A stretch of DNA of 64,000 bases from Escherichia phage VEc20. How positions within the stretch are numbered: position 1 is the stretch's first letter; every line of letters starts with the position of its first letter. The notes beneath the pieces are model-generated. The model was not told the origin of the DNA. It saw only the letters and a program-made list of their open reading frames with translations, and made no database searches. A program made the position numbers and the translations under genes. Below, in pieces: positions 134 to 7,320 of the stretch. The DNA is taken from sequence record MN022785.1, one strand, 5' to 3'.

Positions 134-1417
134 ATGGCTAAAATCAACGAACTTCTGCGCGAATCAACCACAACGAATAGCAACTCAATCGGTCGCCCAA
201 ATCTCGTTGCTTTGACTCGCGCTACCACTAAATTAATATATTCTGACATTGTAGCAACGCAAAGAACTAATCAACCTGTTGCTGCTTTTTATGGTATCAA
301 ATACCTTAACCCAGACAATGAATTTACATTTAAAACTGGTGCTACTTACGCTGGCGAAGCTGGATATGTAGACCGAGAACAAATCACAGAATTAACAGAA
401 GAGTCTAAATTAACTCTCAATAAAGGCGATTTATTCAAATATAATAATATCGTTTATAAAGTATTAGAAGATACTCCATTTGCTGATATTGAAGAAAGCG
501 ACTTAGAGTTAGCTCTTCAGATTGCAATTGTTCTTTTAAAGGTTCGTCTATTTTCTGACGCAGCGTCAACAAGCAAATTTGAAAGCTCTGATAGTGAAAT
601 TGCGGATGCTAGATTCCAGATTAATAAATGGCAAACCGCAGTTAAATCTCGTAAACTTAAAACTGGCATCACAGTTGAATTAGCGCAAGATTTAGAAGCA
701 AATGGATTCGATGCTCCTAATTTCTTGGAAGATTTGCTTGCAACTGAAATGGCGGATGAAATAAATAAAGATATTTTACAGTCTTTGATTACAGTGTCAA
801 AACGCTATAAAGTTACAGGAATTACTGATAATGGATTCATCGATTTGAGTTATGCATCTGCACCTGAAGCTGGTCGTTCATTATATCGAATGGTATGTGA
901 AATGGTTTCACATATCCAAAAAGAATCAACTTATACAGCAACATTTTGTGTAGCTTCAGCTCGTGCTGCTGCGATTCTTGCTGCATCAGGTTGGTTAAAA
1001 CATAAACCGGAAGATGATAAATATCTTTCACAAAATGCCTACGGGTTCTTAGCTAATGGTTTACCGCTTTATTGCGATACTAACAGCCCATTAGATTATG
1101 TAATCGTTGGTGTAGTAGAAAATATCGGTGAAAAAGAAATTGTTGGTTCAATTTTCTATGCTCCGTATACAGAAGGTCTTGACTTAGATGACCCTGAACA
1201 TGTAGGTGCATTTAAAGTTGTTGTTGATCCAGAAAGCTTACAACCGTCTATCGGTTTATTAGTTAGATATGCTTTATCAGCAAATCCTTATACCGTAGCA
1301 AAAGATGAAAAAGAAGCAAGAATAATTGATGGTGGAGACATGGATAAAATGGCGGGTCGTTCAGATTTGTCTGTTTTATTAGGTGTTAAATTACCAAAAA
1401 TTATTATTGATGAATAA
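134..1417 (+). CDS. 24: head vertex protein gp24
   Basis: 427-aa ORF recognised as T4 gp24; length matches; late promoter upstream; RBS AAAGGAAAG. Confidence 0.9.
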   Translation: MAKINELLRESTTTNSNSIGRPNLVALTRATTKLIYSDIVATQRTNQPVAAFYGIKYLNPDNEFTFKTGATYAGEAGYVDREQITELTEESKLTLNKGDLFKYNNIVYKVLEDTPFADIEESDLELALQIAIVLLKVRLFSDAASTSKFESSDSEIADARFQINKWQTAVKSRKLKTGITVELAQDLEANGFDAPNFLEDLLATEMADEINKDILQSLITVSKRYKVTGITDNGFIDLSYASAPEAGRSLYRMVCEMVSHIQKESTYTATFCVASARAAAILAASGWLKHKPEDDKYLSQNAYGFLANGLPLYCDTNSPLDYVIVGVVENIGEKEIVGSIFYAPYTEGLDLDDPEHVGAFKVVVDPESLQPSIGLLVRYALSANPYTVAKDEKEARIIDGGDMDKMAGRSDLSVLLGVKLPKIIIDE

Positions 1418-1423
1418 AACAAA

Positions 1424-1448
1424 GGGACCGAAAGGTCCCTTTTTATTT
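1424..1448. terminator. bidirectional intrinsic terminator hairpin
   Basis: GGGACC-GAAA-GGTCCC with A-run before and T-run after; sits between convergent genes 24 and rnlB. Confidence 0.6.
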
Positions 1449-2454
1449 AGCTCACCAACTCAATCCAAGCTGGACGAAGTACATCTTGTACCATTTTAAC
1501 TAATTCCTTTTTAATCAAAGAAGGATTATCTGCTTGAGTTAGAGTAATACCTTCACGAGAAGTTTCTTCCAAAATATCTTGAACAGTTAGCCCCATCACC
1601 TTTCCAAAATCCTTTGGACCAATTTCGCCAATTTTAGAAATAACGTTATTTACGCGGTTTAGTGTAACGTAACAAGCTAAAATTCCAACCAATTTGTTAT
1701 CAGCTTCTGATAGTTCAACTTTAGCTTTAATAGGCTTATCAGACTTTTTCTTTTCACTAAATTTAGAGTTCTTGCATTTAATCGCTACACGAGCACCGTT
1801 TGGCAGCCATTTAGGGAAACAAGGCTTCAGAACATAACCTTCTGCAGTATTATCACCAATAACATTAGCATCAAATACACAATTATTTGCTTCGACAAGG
1901 TCTTCCGATGCCGTAACGTTATAAGCGGCTAAGACGGAATCAAGGTCGTTTGGAATCATGATAAGAGCATCAAATGTTCCACGTCCAAGCATTGGTGCCA
2001 TTTTAAAACCAAACGTATTACAGAAATCTTGCATTTCGTAATCACTCATGTAATAAGTATCACCGCTTTCCGTGTTTATGATGATATCGAATACATAGAA
2101 ATCTTTTTCACCGTAGTCAACACCTTTCTGAATTCCACCACCAGCGAATTCACCAAAGACTTGATATGTCACCGGCATTGAAGTTGAAATACTGTCCATG
2201 ACTTCTTGAACGCCTTTAATAGCTTTATCATACTTTTTGAGTACTATTTCATAGCCATAAAAATCTTCTGCTGGAAGAATAGGGCCAGTACGTTTAGCGC
2301 AAGTTACTTTATCACGCTCAATAATCAATGAGAAATTTGTACCATGAATCTTTTCACGAGCTACCCACTCCCCACCAGTCAATCCCAAGCTATAAAGTTT
2401 TTCAATGAATTTAGAATTGTAATGATTTTCAAGACTGCTATATTTTTTAAACAT
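1447..2454 (-). CDS. rnlB: RNA ligase 2
   Basis: 335-aa ORF starting [12 protein letters not shown] with the KIHGTN adenylation motif; T4 Rnl2 is about 334 aa at this position. Confidence 0.9.
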
Positions 2455-2463
2455 AATTAATCC

Positions 2464-2742
2464 TCAAAATGTAATTTCTAACCAATCACCATCACGCTGA
2501 TCACTATTGACTTTAAAGCTGAATCCTTCTTTTCTCAGCCAATCACCAATTTCTTCAGTAATCAATTTATCACGAGCAATACAATAATAATTAAAATGTG
2601 TTTTACCTTGTTCAGCTGCTTTATTAGCAAGTTCCGAAAAATCTTTAATAAAACATTCTAGCTTAAACTGTTTACTTTTGAATGCTTTTTCGCGTAATTG
2701 ATTAGCAAAAGATTCATTTTCATAAAGATCATACTGTTCCAT
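2464..2742 (-). CDS. hypothetical protein (24.2-like)
   Basis: 92-aa ORF tightly packed between rnlB and the next ORF. Confidence 0.5.
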   Translation of the reverse strand: MEQYDLYENESFANQLREKAFKSKQFKLECFIKDFSELANKAAEQGKTHFNYYCIARDKLITEEIGDWLRKEGFSFKVNSDQRDGDWLEITF

Positions 2743-2944
2743 TTTTCACCTTTTTATTGATATGTCTTTTTCTATAGACAACTTTTTCTCGAGTTTCAAA
2801 TTTATTCTTAGCAGTCATAGCTCGAGCCCATAATACAGCCACTTCTTTTGCCTGTAAGTTTAATTCACGAGCAATTTCAATGAATGACTTTCCAGACTCA
2901 TGAAGAGTAAACACCACAACCTCAGTTCTCATAATCAATCTCAT
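2729..2944 (-). CDS. hypothetical protein (24.3-like)
   Basis: 71-aa ORF overlapping its neighbour by 14 nt. Confidence 0.5.
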   Translation of the reverse strand: MRLIMRTEVVVFTLHESGKSFIEIARELNLQAKEVAVLWARAMTAKNKFETREKVVYRKRHINKKVKNGTV

Positions 2945-3000
2945 GTTATCGAGTTGGTGCCATTATATACATCATTTTCTGATTGTGTTTTGTGTGCTTT

Positions 3001-3027
3001 CAAAATGAAGAAAGGGGCCGAAGCCCC
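3001..3027 (-). terminator. intrinsic terminator downstream of hoc
   Basis: GGGGC-CGAA-GCCCC (UUCG loop in minus-strand RNA) followed on the minus strand by TTTCTTCATTTT. Confidence 0.55.
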
Positions 3028-3033
3028 TTATGA

Positions 3034-4452
3034 TTATGGATAGGTATAGATGATACCAGTTTCTAAAGCAGTTTTATGAATGATATATCCATTACGCGAT
3101 TCTTGGACATCAACTTCTGGATAGTCTTTCATCATCTTCTGAAGAGTGTAACGATGCAGGTAGTATTTACTATCTGGATCTTCAGTTTTCCAATCTTTAC
3201 CTTCTTCAGTCATTTTTTGAATTTCATCCATAACCCACCAACCGCACCAGATGTAAGCTGAGCTACGGTGTGGAAGAGGATGAACATAAGGTAATTCACC
3301 TTCTGGTTCTGGAGCAACTTTATCAGTTACCTGAACTTGACCTTCTGCCGTAATAGTTTTGCTATCATAATCAGCAGCAGTAACAGTTGCAGTAACTTCA
3401 ATAGTTTGACTTCCAATAGATGAGGTATCAACAGTATATACGTTAGTTGACCCTTCCACAGGAGAAGAATCTTTCTTCCATGAGTAAGTAATTTGTGCTG
3501 CTTCAGGTGCGCCATTAACATTAGCAGTAAATGTAGCCGAAGCATCTTGCTGAACATTAATAGAAGGAGGAGTCAATGTAACCTGTGGATTCATTGTCTT
3601 CTTATTAACTGTCAATGATACTTCATTGGAAGTAACTTCCTTTTCATTATAATTTTCTGCAGTTACTTGGGCTACGCATTTAATTCTTTTTACTCCACTT
3701 GTAGTTGGAGTATAGTTAAATGTAGAGTTAGTTTCTCCACCAACTTGTGAATCATCTACATACCACTGATACGTAGCAGACGCTCCGTCAGGTTGAGAAG
3801 CTAATGCAGCAGTAAATTGAACCGGGGTTCCAATTACTCCAGCAGCAGGACTAGCAGGAGTTACTGCCAAGGTAGTTGTCTGTGTCTTTTTATTAACTGT
3901 CAATGATACTTCATTGGAAGTAACGCTCAGTGCATCATAATCTGTCGCAGTTACTTGAGCTACACACTTAATTTTTTTAACTCCGCTTGTAGTAGGAGTA
4001 TAATTGAATGTAGCAGAAGTTGCTTCGCTCACAGGAGAACCGTCAACGTACCATTGATACGTAGCAGATGCGCCCGATGGCTGTGAAGCTAAGGCAGCAG
4101 TAAATTCAACGGCTGTTCCGATTACTCCTTCTGGAGGACTATTAGGAGTTACAGCTAAGGTAGTTGTTTGTGTCTTATTTTGAACTGTGATAGTTGTACT
4201 AATTTCAGCTGTTTCAGCTTCAGAATCAGGAATAGTATTTGTTGCAACTACCTTAATAGTCTTTTGACCAGCAGGTCCTTTTAATACATAATCAAAAGTT
4301 GCTGCTGATCCTTCTTGGGGAGCATTATCTACGCTCCAAGCATAGGTAATAGTTCCACCTCCAGTTTCACCACTGGGTGTAGCAGTAAACTGCTTGGTTT
4401 CATCAATAACCCCTGTCGGTGTTTTAGGAGTTATATCAACTGTAAAAGTCAT
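3034..4452 (-). CDS. hoc: highly immunogenic outer capsid protein Hoc with an extra Ig-like domain
   Basis: 472-aa ORF starting MTFTVDITPKTPTG with the conserved C-terminal capsid-binding region; two tandem ~96-aa Ig-like repeats of about 85% identity. Confidence 0.85.
   Translation of the reverse strand: MTFTVDITPKTPTGVIDETKQFTATPSGETGGGTITYAWSVDNAPQEGSAATFDYVLKGPAGQKTIKVVATNTIPDSEAETAEISTTITVQNKTQTTTLAVTPNSPPEGVIGTAVEFTAALASQPSGASATYQWYVDGSPVSEATSATFNYTPTTSGVKKIKCVAQVTATDYDALSVTSNEVSLTVNKKTQTTTLAVTPASPAAGVIGTPVQFTAALASQPDGASATYQWYVDDSQVGGETNSTFNYTPTTSGVKRIKCVAQVTAENYNEKEVTSNEVSLTVNKKTMNPQVTLTPPSINVQQDASATFTANVNGAPEAAQITYSWKKDSSPVEGSTNVYTVDTSSIGSQTIEVTATVTAADYDSKTITAEGQVQVTDKVAPEPEGELPYVHPLPHRSSAYIWCGWWVMDEIQKMTEEGKDWKTEDPDSKYYLHRYTLQKMMKDYPEVDVQESRNGYIIHKTALETGIIYTYP
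3601..4176 (-). repeat. tandem in-frame duplication (2 x 288 bp) inside hoc
   Basis: Sequence ttattaactgtcaatgatacttcattggaagtaac recurs at 3602 and 3890 (offset 288 bp); encodes two similar Ig-like domains. Confidence 0.85.
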
Positions 4453-4461
4453 AAGTTATCC

Positions 4462-5142
4462 TTATTTTAATGTTACGAAAGAAGAATTACGTGTTTCACG
4501 AATTAGAACTGATCCGTCACGATTAATGTAGTAAATTAAGCTAAATAAAGTTTGGTGTGCCGACGCATGTTCAAAACTAGTTGGATGAGATTTCCAATCA
4601 GGAGTTTCAGCGATCCATTGATAAATCCACCAAGGAACCGTACAGAATCCTGGATTTTTCCCCAATAATTGAAGATTCGGGCTAAAGTTTTCCGGAAGAG
4701 TAAATACAGACGGCTTTTCAGATTCAATAATCTCAGCTACAGCTTGTTCGAATTTTTCTTCAACAAAAGGAGTATCTTCAATCAAAACATCAGTATTTTC
4801 AGGAATTTTATCCGTTTCTACCACTTCAATTTTAATATCAGATTTAACTGGAGAATCAATCAGAAGTGCTGCTTCTGGATTAACTTCTTCATCGTCATAT
4901 TTTAACCCCTCTGCAGCATCAGCAGCATCAATTAAGTCTTTAATAGATAACCCATCAGTCTCTGGCATAGGTTCACTAGCGAGCTTCTGGAGGGCTTCTT
5001 CAATATCAGCAACGATATTATCAAAAGATTTATTCTTTTTGACCTTTATACCAAACTGTTCAGCATATTCAGCTAATTTAGCTTTAGCTTCTTTATTATC
5101 ATCAAGAGCCTTCAGCTCTGCAATATAATCTTTATCTATCAT
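4462..5142 (-). CDS. inh: prohead protease inhibitor Inh-like protein
   Basis: 226-aa ORF immediately upstream of hoc; position and length match T4 inh. Confidence 0.7.
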   Translation of the reverse strand: MIDKDYIAELKALDDNKEAKAKLAEYAEQFGIKVKKNKSFDNIVADIEEALQKLASEPMPETDGLSIKDLIDAADAAEGLKYDDEEVNPEAALLIDSPVKSDIKIEVVETDKIPENTDVLIEDTPFVEEKFEQAVAEIIESEKPSVFTLPENFSPNLQLLGKNPGFCTVPWWIYQWIAETPDWKSHPTSFEHASAHQTLFSLIYYINRDGSVLIRETRNSSFVTLK

Positions 5143-5155
5143 AATATTTCCTCAG

Positions 5156-5163
5156 TATAAATA
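5156..5163 (+). promoter_or_regulatory. late promoter TATAAATA
   Basis: Exact TATAAATA 29 nt upstream of the segE-like ATG. Confidence 0.6.
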
Positions 5164-5191
5164 TAGATATATTTATTACTCGGAAAATAGT

Positions 5192-5809
5192 ATGTACCAC
5201 TTTGTATATGAAACAACAAATCTAATAAATGGTAAAAAGTATATAGGAAAACACTCTACTGATGACTTGAATGATGGTTACCTTGGTTCCGGTAAGGCAA
5301 TTCAGCAGGCTATAAAGAAATATGGTGAAAACAATTTCTCTAGAACAATACTAAAAGAGTTTAAAACTTCCGAAGAAGCGTACATGTATGAAGAAGAAAT
5401 TATAACTCCTGAACTAATAAAAAGCAAAAATTATTATAATATGAAACCTGGTGGAATTGGTGGAATTGTTATGACTACAGAGGTTATAGCAAAGATGAAA
5501 GAATCTTCCGCTAAAAGATTTGAAAACTCACCAGGCACGGTATTAGGTAAAACTTGTTACACCAATGGAACTAAAAATATTTTTATTAAACCTGGAGAAC
5601 TTGTTCCAGAAGGATTTGTAAAAGGGATGGTTCATCCTAATAGAAAGTCCAGAAAAGGATGTAAAGTCAAACCGACTACCACAGGAACTTTTTGGGTCAA
5701 TAATGGCGCAATAAATAAATTAATACAACCAGACGGTATTATTCCCGACGGATTTATTAAAGGTCGTCTCATGAAAAGAGATTCTAAAGGCAAATTTAGT
5801 AAGGCATAA
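5192..5809 (+). CDS. segE: GIY-YIG homing endonuclease (segE-like)
   Basis: 205-aa ORF; N-terminal GIY-YIG motif YHFVYETTN...KKYIGK; sits between inh and uvsW where T4 carries segE. Confidence 0.65.
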   Translation: MYHFVYETTNLINGKKYIGKHSTDDLNDGYLGSGKAIQQAIKKYGENNFSRTILKEFKTSEEAYMYEEEIITPELIKSKNYYNMKPGGIGGIVMTTEVIAKMKESSAKRFENSPGTVLGKTCYTNGTKNIFIKPGELVPEGFVKGMVHPNRKSRKGCKVKPTTTGTFWVNNGAINKLIQPDGIIPDGFIKGRLMKRDSKGKFSKA

Positions 5810-5811
5810 TT

Positions 5812-7320
5812 ATGGATATTAAAGTACATTTTCACGACTTCAGTCATGTACGCATCGATTGTGAAGAGAGCACGTTCCACGAATTAAGAGATTTCTTTTC
5901 GTTTGAGGCCGATGGATATAGATTTAACCCTCGCTTCAGATATGGCAACTGGGATGGGCGAATCCGTCTTTTAGATTATAATCGTCTTCTTCCATTCGGC
6001 TTAGTCGGGCAAATTAAAAAGTTCTGCGATAACTTTGGCTATAAAGCCTGGATTGACCCACAGATTAACGAAAAAGAAGAATTATCAAGAAAAGATTTTG
6101 ATGAATGGCTTTCTAAATTAGAAATCTATTCAGGAAATAAAAGAATTGAACCGCATTGGTATCAAAAAGATGCAGTGTTCGAAGGATTAGTTAATCGTCG
6201 TAGAATTCTTAATCTTCCAACATCCGCTGGTAAATCGTTAATTCAAGCTTTGCTTGCGCGATATTATTTGGAAAATTATGAAGGTAAAATTCTTATCATT
6301 GTTCCAACAACTGCTCTAACAACTCAGATGGCTGATGACTTCGTTGACTATCGTTTATTCAGTCATGCAATGATAAAGAAAATTGGTGGCGGAGCATCAA
6401 AAGATGATAAATATAAAAATGATGCACCAGTCGTTGTTGGTACATGGCAAACTGTAGTAAAACAACCGAAAGAATGGTTCTCACAGTTTGGAATGATGAT
6501 GAATGATGAATGCCATCTTGCTACAGGAAAAAGTATTTCATCTATCATATCAGGTTTAAATAACTGCATGTTCAAATTTGGTCTATCTGGTTCATTACGT
6601 GATGGCAAAGCCAATATCATGCAGTATGTTGGAATGTTTGGTGAAATATTTAAGCCAGTAACGACTTCTAAGTTAATGGAAGATGGACAAGTAACTGAGC
6701 TAAAAATTAATAGTATTTTTCTTCGCTATCCCGATGAGTTCACTACTAAATTAAAGGGAAAAACTTATCAAGAAGAAATAAAAATTATTACGGGGCTTAG
6801 TAAAAGAAATAAATGGATCGCTAAATTGGCTATTAAGCTTGCACAAAAAGATGAAAACGCTTTTGTCATGTTTAAACATGTATCACATGGTAAAGCTATT
6901 TTCGATTTAATTAAAAATGAATACGATAAAGTTTATTACGTATCAGGGGAAGTTGATACCGAAACCCGCAATATAATGAAAACCTTAGCTGAAAATGGTA
7001 AAGGAATAATTATAGTAGCTAGTTATGGTGTATTTTCTACTGGTATTTCAGTTAAAAATCTGCATCACGTTGTTTTAGCGCACGGTGTTAAATCAAAAAT
7101 CATTGTATTACAAACAATCGGTCGTGTATTACGTAAGCATGGTTCTAAAACAATCGCAACAGTCTGGGACCTCATAGATGACTGTGGTGTCAAGCCAAAA
7201 TCTGCTAATACTAAAAAGAAATATGTTCACTTGAACTATCTTTTAAAACACGGCATTGATCGTATTCAGCGCTACGCAGATGAAAAATTTAATTACGTAA
7301 TGAAAACAGTTAATTTATAA
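5812..7320 (+). CDS. uvsW: UvsW DNA helicase
   Basis: 502-aa ORF with Walker A (PTSAGKS) and DECH box. Confidence 0.9.
   Translation: MDIKVHFHDFSHVRIDCEESTFHELRDFFSFEADGYRFNPRFRYGNWDGRIRLLDYNRLLPFGLVGQIKKFCDNFGYKAWIDPQINEKEELSRKDFDEWLSKLEIYSGNKRIEPHWYQKDAVFEGLVNRRRILNLPTSAGKSLIQALLARYYLENYEGKILIIVPTTALTTQMADDFVDYRLFSHAMIKKIGGGASKDDKYKNDAPVVVGTWQTVVKQPKEWFSQFGMMMNDECHLATGKSISSIISGLNNCMFKFGLSGSLRDGKANIMQYVGMFGEIFKPVTTSKLMEDGQVTELKINSIFLRYPDEFTTKLKGKTYQEEIKIITGLSKRNKWIAKLAIKLAQKDENAFVMFKHVSHGKAIFDLIKNEYDKVYYVSGEVDTETRNIMKTLAENGKGIIIVASYGVFSTGISVKNLHHVVLAHGVKSKIIVLQTIGRVLRKHGSKTIATVWDLIDDCGVKPKSANTKKKYVHLNYLLKHGIDRIQRYADEKFNYVMKTVNL

What the first reader, a model, noticed from the sequence alone, without database searches (positions are those of the whole stretch)
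3601..4176. Hoc carries an extra, tandemly duplicated Ig-like domain
A 288-bp unit is repeated in tandem and in frame inside hoc. The protein is 472 aa against about 376 aa for T4 Hoc, with two adjacent ~96-aa Ig-like repeats of about 85% identity. Hoc decorates the capsid surface, so an added domain changes displayed epitopes and surface-binding properties.
Basis: partly seen in the sequence, partly recalled or inferred. Interest (0 to 1): 0.5.

Follow-up and report, generated by a model that had tools for sequence, protein, structure and literature searches.

The report
Common two-copy Ig-domain Hoc allele
The capsid decoration gene hoc of this T4-like phage really does carry two tandem copies of its second immunoglobulin-like domain, but this is an old, common and already annotated allele found in about a third of sequenced T4-type phages.

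Summary
T4 Hoc (376 aa) has one such unit.

It is not new. The GenBank record of phage RB30 hoc (AY101183) already annotates an [quoted passage not shown]. In an evenly spaced sample of 60 of the 616 phage records holding the unit, 22 carry two or more copies.

The unit is copy-number polymorphic in Tequatrovirus: 1, 2, 3 or 4 copies give Hoc proteins of 376, 472, 568 and 664 aa.

The copies are old and both are constrained. Synonymous divergence between them is 0.71, against 0.20-0.25 between this phage and T4 in the other parts of hoc, and dN/dS is 0.20. This excludes an assembly artefact and a recent duplication.

An AlphaFold model shows four confident beta-sandwich domains. The capsid-binding C-terminal domain differs from T4's at one residue. 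A longer fibre with a second domain-2 binding surface is an inference and has not been tested.

Verdict: real, ordinary, already known; low interest.

The parts
3034..4452 (-). hoc coding sequence, 472 aa plus stop: highly immunogenic outer capsid (head decoration) protein
   Evidence: ORF. phmmer to T4 Hoc 5vf3_Z gives E 1.5e-219. PHROG 1149 'Hoc-like head decoration' gives E 1e-138. It is 98.1% nt identical to hoc of phage vB_EcoM_G2133.
4177..4452 (-). Ig-like domain 1 (aa 1-92)
   Evidence: Aligns to T4 Hoc residues 1-92. Beta-sandwich strands at aa 4-91 with pLDDT 86-94. 87.7% nt identity to T4.
3889..4176 (-). Domain-2 unit, copy 1 (aa 93-188), the more T4-divergent copy, with a T4-like 'TDYDALSV' tail
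   Evidence: 233/288 nt identical to T4 domain 2. Pfam PKD/Ig_2 hits. Strands at aa 99-187 with pLDDT >90.
3601..3888 (-). Domain-2 unit, copy 2 (aa 189-284), the T4-like copy except for its 'ENYNEKEV' tail
   Evidence: 262/288 nt identical to T4 domain 2. Pfam PKD best stretch is aa 197-267. Strands at aa 194-283 with pLDDT >90.
3313..3600 (-). Ig-like domain 3 (aa 285-380)
   Evidence: Aligns to T4 Hoc 189-284. Pfam Ig_3/I-set at aa 289-373. Strands at aa 290-376.
3034..3312 (-). C-terminal capsid-binding domain (aa 381-472) plus stop codon
   Evidence: Differs at one residue from T4 Hoc 285-376 (E424 for D328), with the His-Arg of 'PHRSS' conserved. Fokine et al. 2023 (PMC10385173) assign this domain to binding of the gp23* hexamer. 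The model is low-confidence here (pLDDT <55).
3012..3029 (-). Intrinsic-terminator-like hairpin (AAGGGGCTTCGGCCCCTT followed by a T-rich tail) 5 nt after the hoc stop codon
   Evidence: A terminator is annotated at the same place in phage G2133.
4462..5142 (-). inh (inhibitor of prohead protease gp21), immediately upstream on the same strand, 9 nt from the hoc start; probably co-transcribed with hoc
   Evidence: ORF. PHROG 1051 gives E 3e-102. T4 annotation has the same order. Co-transcription is inferred.

Best explanation
This is the ordinary hoc gene of a Tequatrovirus (T4-like phage) in its two-unit allelic form. Hoc is a fibre made of Ig-like domains anchored to the centre of each gp23* hexamer by a C-terminal domain. 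Here the second Ig-like domain, a 96-aa PKD/Ig-like unit, is present as two diverged tandem copies. The architecture is D1, D2a, D2b, D3, C-terminal domain. The 288-nt unit is a copy-number-variable cassette in this genus, with 1-4 units giving 376, 472, 568 and 664 aa. The variation is most likely generated and reshuffled by unequal homologous recombination between units and between co-infecting phages, because multi-unit alleles keep the units in a conserved order and individual units are mosaics. Both copies in this window are old and under purifying selection, so both are expected to fold and be displayed. Inferred consequences: a fibre about one domain longer (roughly 45 A added to T4's ~180 A) and a second copy of the domain-2 surface. 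That surface includes the S-L-T motif reported as the MUC2-binding site in phage PNJ-9 Hoc. Capsid attachment should be unchanged. What is shown: gene identity, repeat, domain count, population frequency, age and constraint. What is inferred: recombination mechanism, fibre length, binding effect.
For: Repeat and frame. Identity as Hoc with one extra domain 2: T4 Hoc aligns to 1-104 and 189-472; PKD/Ig Pfam hits; PHROG Hoc. Synteny uvsY-uvsW-segE-inh-hoc-24.3-24.2-rnlB-gp24-gp23 as in T4. Prior annotation: RB30 AY101183 'intragenic repeat led to appearance of additional immunoglobulin-like domain' with five annotated domains; RB30 Hoc is 91.5% identical to this one. Frequency: the 288-nt unit hits 616 phage records at 890 places. 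In an evenly spaced sample of 60 records, 38 have 1 place, 19 have 2, 2 have 3 and 1 has 4. An independent estimate from hoc span gives about 23/60 records at ~1419 bp. Copy-number series: protein clusters of 376, 472 and 568/570 aa and slur14 Hoc of 664 aa with four units 72-84% identical. Age and constraint: dS between copies is 0.71 against 0.20-0.25 for window versus T4 in D1, D2b and D3+C-terminus, and dN/dS is 0.20. First copies resemble first copies of other phages (88.6%) more than the second copy of their own gene (79%). Mosaicism and order: T4's unit is copy-2-type over nt 1-228 and copy-1-type at nt 229-252. Arrays are mostly order-preserving subsets of slur14's A-B-C-D. Fold: four beta-sandwich domains with pLDDT >90 over aa 1-380; the best Foldseek matches are four-Ig arrays, Dscam1 and ICAM-5 D1-D4, at E ~1e-13. 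Function of Hoc domains in mucus binding, and S183/L184/T185 in PNJ-9 domain 2: PMC11853027. That motif occurs at aa 183-185 and 279-281 here.
Against: Nothing contradicts the identification. The functional consequences are untested: I found no paper measuring capsids or binding for a 472-aa Hoc. The C-terminal domain of the model is low-confidence, so the model says nothing about attachment. In the unit classification, 9 of the 472-aa clusters came out as 'C-B' rather than 'A-B', because their first unit is an A/C mosaic; the 'ordered subset' picture is therefore approximate. Copy counts from BLAST 'places' are indirect and come from a sample of 60 records.
Confidence: 0.93

Rival explanations
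1. A recent duplication specific to this phage lineage, which added a new domain to a T4-like four-domain Hoc (the reading implied by the first reader).
For: T4, the reference, has one unit. The repeat is perfectly tandem and in frame.
Against: The copies differ at 21% of nucleotides, with dS 0.71. That is about three times the divergence between this phage and T4 elsewhere in hoc. Copy 1 and copy 2 are each closer to the same-position copy in other phages than to each other. The same two-unit form is present in about a third of records, including RB30, PP01 and Yersinia, Serratia, Salmonella and Shigella phages.
Confidence: 0.03
2. Assembly artefact: a collapsed or expanded repeat produced by the assembler.
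For: Tandem repeats are a known source of misassembly, and no read data are available here.
Against: At 79% identity the two copies are easily told apart by reads. The reading frame is intact, with dN/dS of 0.20. The same structure appears in hundreds of independent assemblies and in a 2002 Sanger-era single-gene record.
Confidence: 0.01
3. Reversed polarity: the multi-unit array is ancestral, and the single-unit T4 form arose from it by unequal-crossover deletion and gene conversion. This phage would then carry a less collapsed array rather than an 'extra' domain.
For: Two-, three- and four-unit alleles are mostly order-preserving subsets of one A-B-C-D series. Single-unit alleles fall into all four unit types and are mosaics of copy-1-type and copy-2-type characters. 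T4's unit is a copy-2/copy-1 chimera. The unit types diverged well before the present alleles did (dS 0.71).
Against: T4's chimera is copy-2 head plus copy-1 tail. A single unequal crossover in a copy1-copy2 array would give the opposite arrangement, so at least one extra conversion event is needed. No outgroup-rooted phylogeny was made. Expansion from one unit, with later exchange against single-unit alleles, fits equally well.
Confidence: 0.45

Closest known systems
Hoc of phage RB30 (GenBank AY101183.1, protein AAM52483.1)
   Same: 472 aa and the same five-part architecture. The record annotates the same 288-nt intragenic repeat as the origin of an additional Ig-like domain. 91.5% aa and 91.2% nt identity to the window's hoc.
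   Different: About 8.5% of residues differ, concentrated in the variable loops of the two D2 units. RB30 lacks the neighbouring segE gene according to PMC2330249, whereas this window has it.
Hoc of phage T4 (PDB 5VF3 chain Z; 376 aa)
   Same: Same gene and position. [quoted passage not shown]
   Different: T4 has one D2 unit. Its unit is a mosaic: it is like the window's copy 2 over nt 1-228 and like copy 1 at nt 229-252.
Longer Tequatrovirus Hoc alleles: UGKSEcP1/UGKSEcP2 (568/570 aa), vB_Eco_OMNI12 (three D2 matches by BLAST; protein length not checked), slur14 (664 aa)
   Same: Same unit, same frame and same flanking domains. They belong to the same copy-number series.
   Different: Three or four units instead of two, including unit types ('SLVDGETTTTF', 'SQIGEATSATF') that are absent from this window.
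Hoc homologues with other domain counts: PNJ-9 (three domains, lacks D3), Serratia phage Muldoon (10 Ig-like domains, 1174 aa)
   Same: [quoted passage not shown] Variable domain number is a recognised property of the family (PMC11853027; PMC10385173).
   Different: Different domains are lost or gained, and the sequences are more distant. In the lineage of loci L007 and L008 a D3-like domain, not D2, is tandemly duplicated.

Membership tests
Hoc (highly immunogenic outer capsid protein) of T4-like phages | [quoted passage not shown] | tested here: met
   Window aa 377-472 aligns to T4 281-376 with one substitution, and 'PHRSS' is conserved. PHROGs 21694, 14282 and 11091, all 'Hoc-like head decoration', match aa 389-472.
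Hoc (highly immunogenic outer capsid protein) of T4-like phages | N-terminal linear string of Ig-like (PKD/I-set) domains | tested here: met
   Pfam PKD, Ig_2, Ig_3 and I-set hits. The AlphaFold model has four all-beta domains with pLDDT >90. The top Foldseek matches are four-Ig-domain arrays.
Hoc (highly immunogenic outer capsid protein) of T4-like phages | Genomic position between inh and 24.3/24.2/rnlB, near gp24 and gp23 | tested here: met
Hoc (highly immunogenic outer capsid protein) of T4-like phages | One molecule bound at the centre of each gp23* hexamer on the mature capsid; dispensable for growth | not testable with these tools
   Needs virion proteomics, cryo-EM or genetics. Inferred from the near-identity of the binding domain to T4's.
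Two-unit (RB30-type) hoc allele | In-frame tandem repeat of the 288-nt domain-2 unit giving a 472-aa protein | tested here: met
   The RB30 annotation places the repeat_region at CDS nt 338-915 and lists five domains.
Two-unit (RB30-type) hoc allele | Copies are positional orthologues of those in other two-unit alleles (a shared old duplication, not an independent event) | tested here: met
   Identity is 88.6% among first copies, 88.1% among second copies, 80.4% between first and second copies, and 79% within the same gene, over 29 protein clusters.
Diversity-generating or programmed variation systems (DGR, phase-variable repeats) | Template repeat plus reverse transcriptase with adenine-specific changes, or short-unit slippage repeats that shift the frame | tested here: not met
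   The repeat unit is a whole 288-nt domain kept in frame. Differences between the copies include 27 synonymous against 20 nonsynonymous codon changes, with dN/dS 0.20. No reverse transcriptase lies nearby in the annotated neighbourhood. This is ordinary paralogue divergence.

The most novel reading that the evidence does not exclude
Domain 2 of Tequatrovirus Hoc is an ordered cassette array of at least four diverged unit types (A-B-C-D). Natural alleles are order-preserving subsets of 1-4 units, reshuffled by unequal and homologous recombination inside a hypervariable island whose flanks are almost invariant and which lies next to the SegE homing site. T4's textbook four-domain Hoc would then be a collapsed mosaic. 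Unit number and type would tune fibre length and mucin/glycan avidity. I found no paper in the searchable library that describes this series systematically, although the two-unit form itself is annotated.
Probability: 0.3. Interest if true: 0.35.

Novelty: already known. Interest (0 to 1): 0.12.

Why it matters
Hoc is the T4 surface protein used for antigen display, and it is implicated in phage adherence to mucus. Hoc length and domain-2 content therefore matter for anyone using a T4-like phage other than T4 for display, therapy or mucus-binding studies. About one third of natural isolates present a Hoc fibre that is longer by one or more domains. For genome annotation, a 472-aa Hoc is normal and should not be flagged as an anomaly or misassembly. 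The finding opens no new question, because the two-unit allele has been annotated since the RB30 record and variable Ig-domain number is a recognised property of Hoc homologues.

Tried and rejected
1. I tried to count multi-copy genomes with an 80-nt query across the copy1/copy2 junction at a strict E-value. It returned only 48 records because the junction flanks diverge beyond megablast's reach. I used it only as a lower bound and replaced it with the blastn 'places per record' count.
2. The coverage statistic ('580 records cover at least 80% of the query') is misleading. Single-unit genes are reported as 100% covered in two pieces, so I used the record spans instead.
3. Self-BLASTP of the distant homologues returned no lines, probably a flaw in my own filter. 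I replaced it with an offset-identity scan.
4. Literature searches for a paper on the RB30 or five-domain Hoc found nothing specific. Sathaliyawala et al. 2010 (PMC2909354) is not held.
5. An exact T4 late-promoter motif (TATAAATA) for inh-hoc was not found on the minus strand upstream of inh. There is only a one-mismatch AATAAATA at about 5170-5177. I make no promoter claim.
6. An Rfam scan of the whole window found nothing.
7. A diversity-generating retroelement or slippage-type variation was considered and rejected (see Membership tests).

Full report
**Observation.** The window carries a 472-aa ORF on the minus strand at 3034-4452.
- Tandem Repeats Finder reports a single array at 3595-4188, with period 288, 2.1 copies and 79% matches.
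- The repeat finder gives two adjacent 288-nt copies at 79% identity.
- In codon register, copy 1 is aa 93-188 (window 3889-4176) and copy 2 is aa 189-284 (window 3601-3888).
- The repeat is real, in frame, and far beyond chance.

**What the gene is.**
- The protein matches T4 Hoc (PDB 5vf3 chain Z, 376 aa) at E 1.5e-219. It aligns in two collinear blocks, query 1-104 and 189-472, so the additional 96 residues are a second copy of Ig-like domain 2.
- Pfam finds PKD, Ig_2, Ig_3 and I-set domains. PHROGs assigns 'Hoc-like head decoration'.
- The neighbourhood is the T4 order: uvsY, uvsW, segE, inh, hoc, 24.3, 24.2, rnlB, gp24, gp23.
- hoc starts 9 nt after inh and is followed by a strong terminator-like hairpin at 3029-3012.
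- The closest genome is Escherichia phage vB_EcoM_G2133, at 98.1% over hoc and 98.3% over 8.4 kb.
- An AlphaFold2 model built on a 34-sequence alignment shows four consecutive all-beta domains (aa 4-91, 99-187, 194-283, 290-376) with pLDDT mostly above 90. The C-terminal domain is low-confidence.
- The best Foldseek matches in the PDB are four-Ig-domain arrays such as Dscam1 and ICAM-5 D1-D4, at E ~1e-13.
[quoted passage not shown] Fokine et al. 2023 place that pair at the gp23* interface (PMC10385173).

**It is already known and common.**
RB30 Hoc is 472 aa and 91.5% identical to this one.
- A blastn search with one 288-nt unit hits 616 phage records at 890 places. In an evenly spaced sample of 60 records, 38 have one unit, 19 have two, 2 have three and 1 has four.
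- An independent estimate from the span of the whole-gene match gives about 23 of 60 records at ~1419 bp and about 28 of 60 at ~1131 bp. A few records have an ~852-bp form.
- In the 5.8-billion-protein collection, the best 120 clusters fall into length classes of 376, 472 and 568/570 aa.
- Phage slur14 encodes a 664-aa Hoc with four tandem units that are 72-84% identical to each other.
- So the domain-2 unit is a copy-number polymorphism of 1-4 units in Tequatrovirus, and this window holds the two-unit allele.
- Variable Ig-domain number in Hoc homologues in general is stated in the literature: 1 to 10 Ig-like domains (PMC10385173) and a three-domain variant lacking D3 (PMC11853027).

**Age, constraint and mosaicism.**
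- Nei-Gojobori estimates between the two copies are dS 0.71 and dN 0.14, giving dN/dS 0.20. Between this phage and T4, dS is 0.20-0.25 in D1, in D2 copy 2 and in D3 plus the C-terminus.
- Across 29 two-unit protein clusters, first copies are 88.6% identical to one another and second copies 88.1%. First versus second copies are 80.4% identical, and 79% within the same gene.
- The copies are therefore positional orthologues. They derive from a duplication that predates the divergence of present alleles, and both are under purifying selection.
- This excludes an assembly artefact and a recent lineage-specific duplication.
- At sites where the window's two copies differ, T4's single unit follows copy 2 over nt 1-228 and copy 1 at nt 229-252, the 'TDYDALSV' versus 'ENYNEKEV' segment.
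- Single-unit alleles in general are mosaics of copy-1-type and copy-2-type characters.
- I classified every unit against slur14's four units (A-D). Multi-unit alleles are almost all order-preserving subsets: AB, AC, AD, BD, ABC, ABD, ACD, ABCD. The exception is a 'CB' class whose first unit is an A/C mosaic.
- This pattern is what unequal homologous recombination within an ordered array would produce. It does not by itself say whether one unit or several is ancestral.
- hoc is also a divergence island. Flanking DNA (inh, segE, uvsW, 24.2, 24.3) is 96-100% identical to T4, while hoc is 88-93% identical.

**How it most likely works.**
- Shown: the gene encodes D1, D2a, D2b, D3 and an essentially T4-identical capsid-binding domain.
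- Inferred: the protein binds the centre of gp23* hexamers as in T4 and projects a fibre one Ig-like domain longer. T4's four-domain fibre is ~180 A (PMC10385173), so roughly 45 A is added.
- The D2 surface is displayed twice, in two sequence variants.
- The residues reported as critical for MUC2 binding in domain 2 of phage PNJ-9 Hoc are S183, L184 and T185 (PMC11853027). They correspond to the S-L-T of the conserved 'SLTVNK' strand. That motif occurs at aa 183-185 and again at 279-281 here.
- A gain in avidity or reach for mucin or glycan binding, and altered antigenicity, are therefore plausible. I found no experimental data on any 472-aa Hoc.

**Comparison and verdict.**
- The feature is a member of the Hoc family and of the RB30-type two-unit allele. 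All sequence-testable defining features are met.
- It is not a diversity-generating or slippage system.
- Novelty: already known. Interest is low.
- The only mildly new aspect is the systematic picture assembled here: a 1-4-unit ordered cassette array in which T4 is a mosaic at the low end. I could not find this described in the searchable literature.

Noticed in passing
window 5192-5809 (+): A GIY-YIG homing endonuclease gene that is 204/205 aa identical to T4 SegE, sitting between inh and uvsW as in T4. An exact TATAAATA lies 29 nt upstream, at 5156-5163 (+). RB30 (per PMC2330249) and slur14 (only ~50 nt between uvsW and inh in its annotation) carry multi-unit hoc alleles but lack segE. SegE homing co-converts flanking markers (PMC2330249), and the D2 array lies only about 1-1.6 kb away, so homing could help shuffle hoc alleles.
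   Followed up: partly
window ~400-7000 compared with T4 (locus L024): hoc is a divergence island. Flanking genes (inh, segE, uvsW, 24.2, 24.3) are 96-100% identical to T4 in 100-nt blocks, while hoc is 88-93% identical. A second divergent patch (55-85% identity) lies at about window 1850-2350, inside the rnlB homologue.
   Followed up: partly
L025 (Escherichia phage slur14, LN881736.1) 931-2925: A 664-aa Hoc with four tandem domain-2 units that are 72-84% identical to each other. It is the longest Tequatrovirus allele seen here and served as the A-B-C-D reference for typing units.
   Followed up: yes
L008 1501-2916 and L007 1501-2919 (IMG/VR UViG_2974546015_000001 and UViG_2974735671_000001): A more distant Hoc lineage (47-49% identity to the window's Hoc) is also 471-472 aa. 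There a D3-like domain, not D2, is tandemly duplicated. The offset is 94-95 aa, with 81% identity in L008 and 53% in L007. This is an independent case of domain gain by tandem duplication.
   Followed up: partly
phage records MG010123.1 and PV654520.1 (hits H47 and H83): Records labelled 'Staphylococcus phage SAJK-IND' (32 kb) and 'Pseudomonas phage vB_PSGBLB0006' carry hoc genes 88-92% identical to this Tequatrovirus hoc. Mislabelling or contamination of the records seems likely.
   Followed up: no
window 1-64000: No Rfam family reaches its gathering score anywhere in the 64-kb window, so no group I intron or other curated RNA is detected.
   Followed up: no
phage records OQ349392.1 (KIT06), OL770074.2 (RPN187), PV648359.1 (LF82-1): Short hoc forms with a span of about 852-867 bp also occur among close relatives. 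They are presumably three-part proteins like the PNJ-9 variant that lacks a domain.
   Followed up: no
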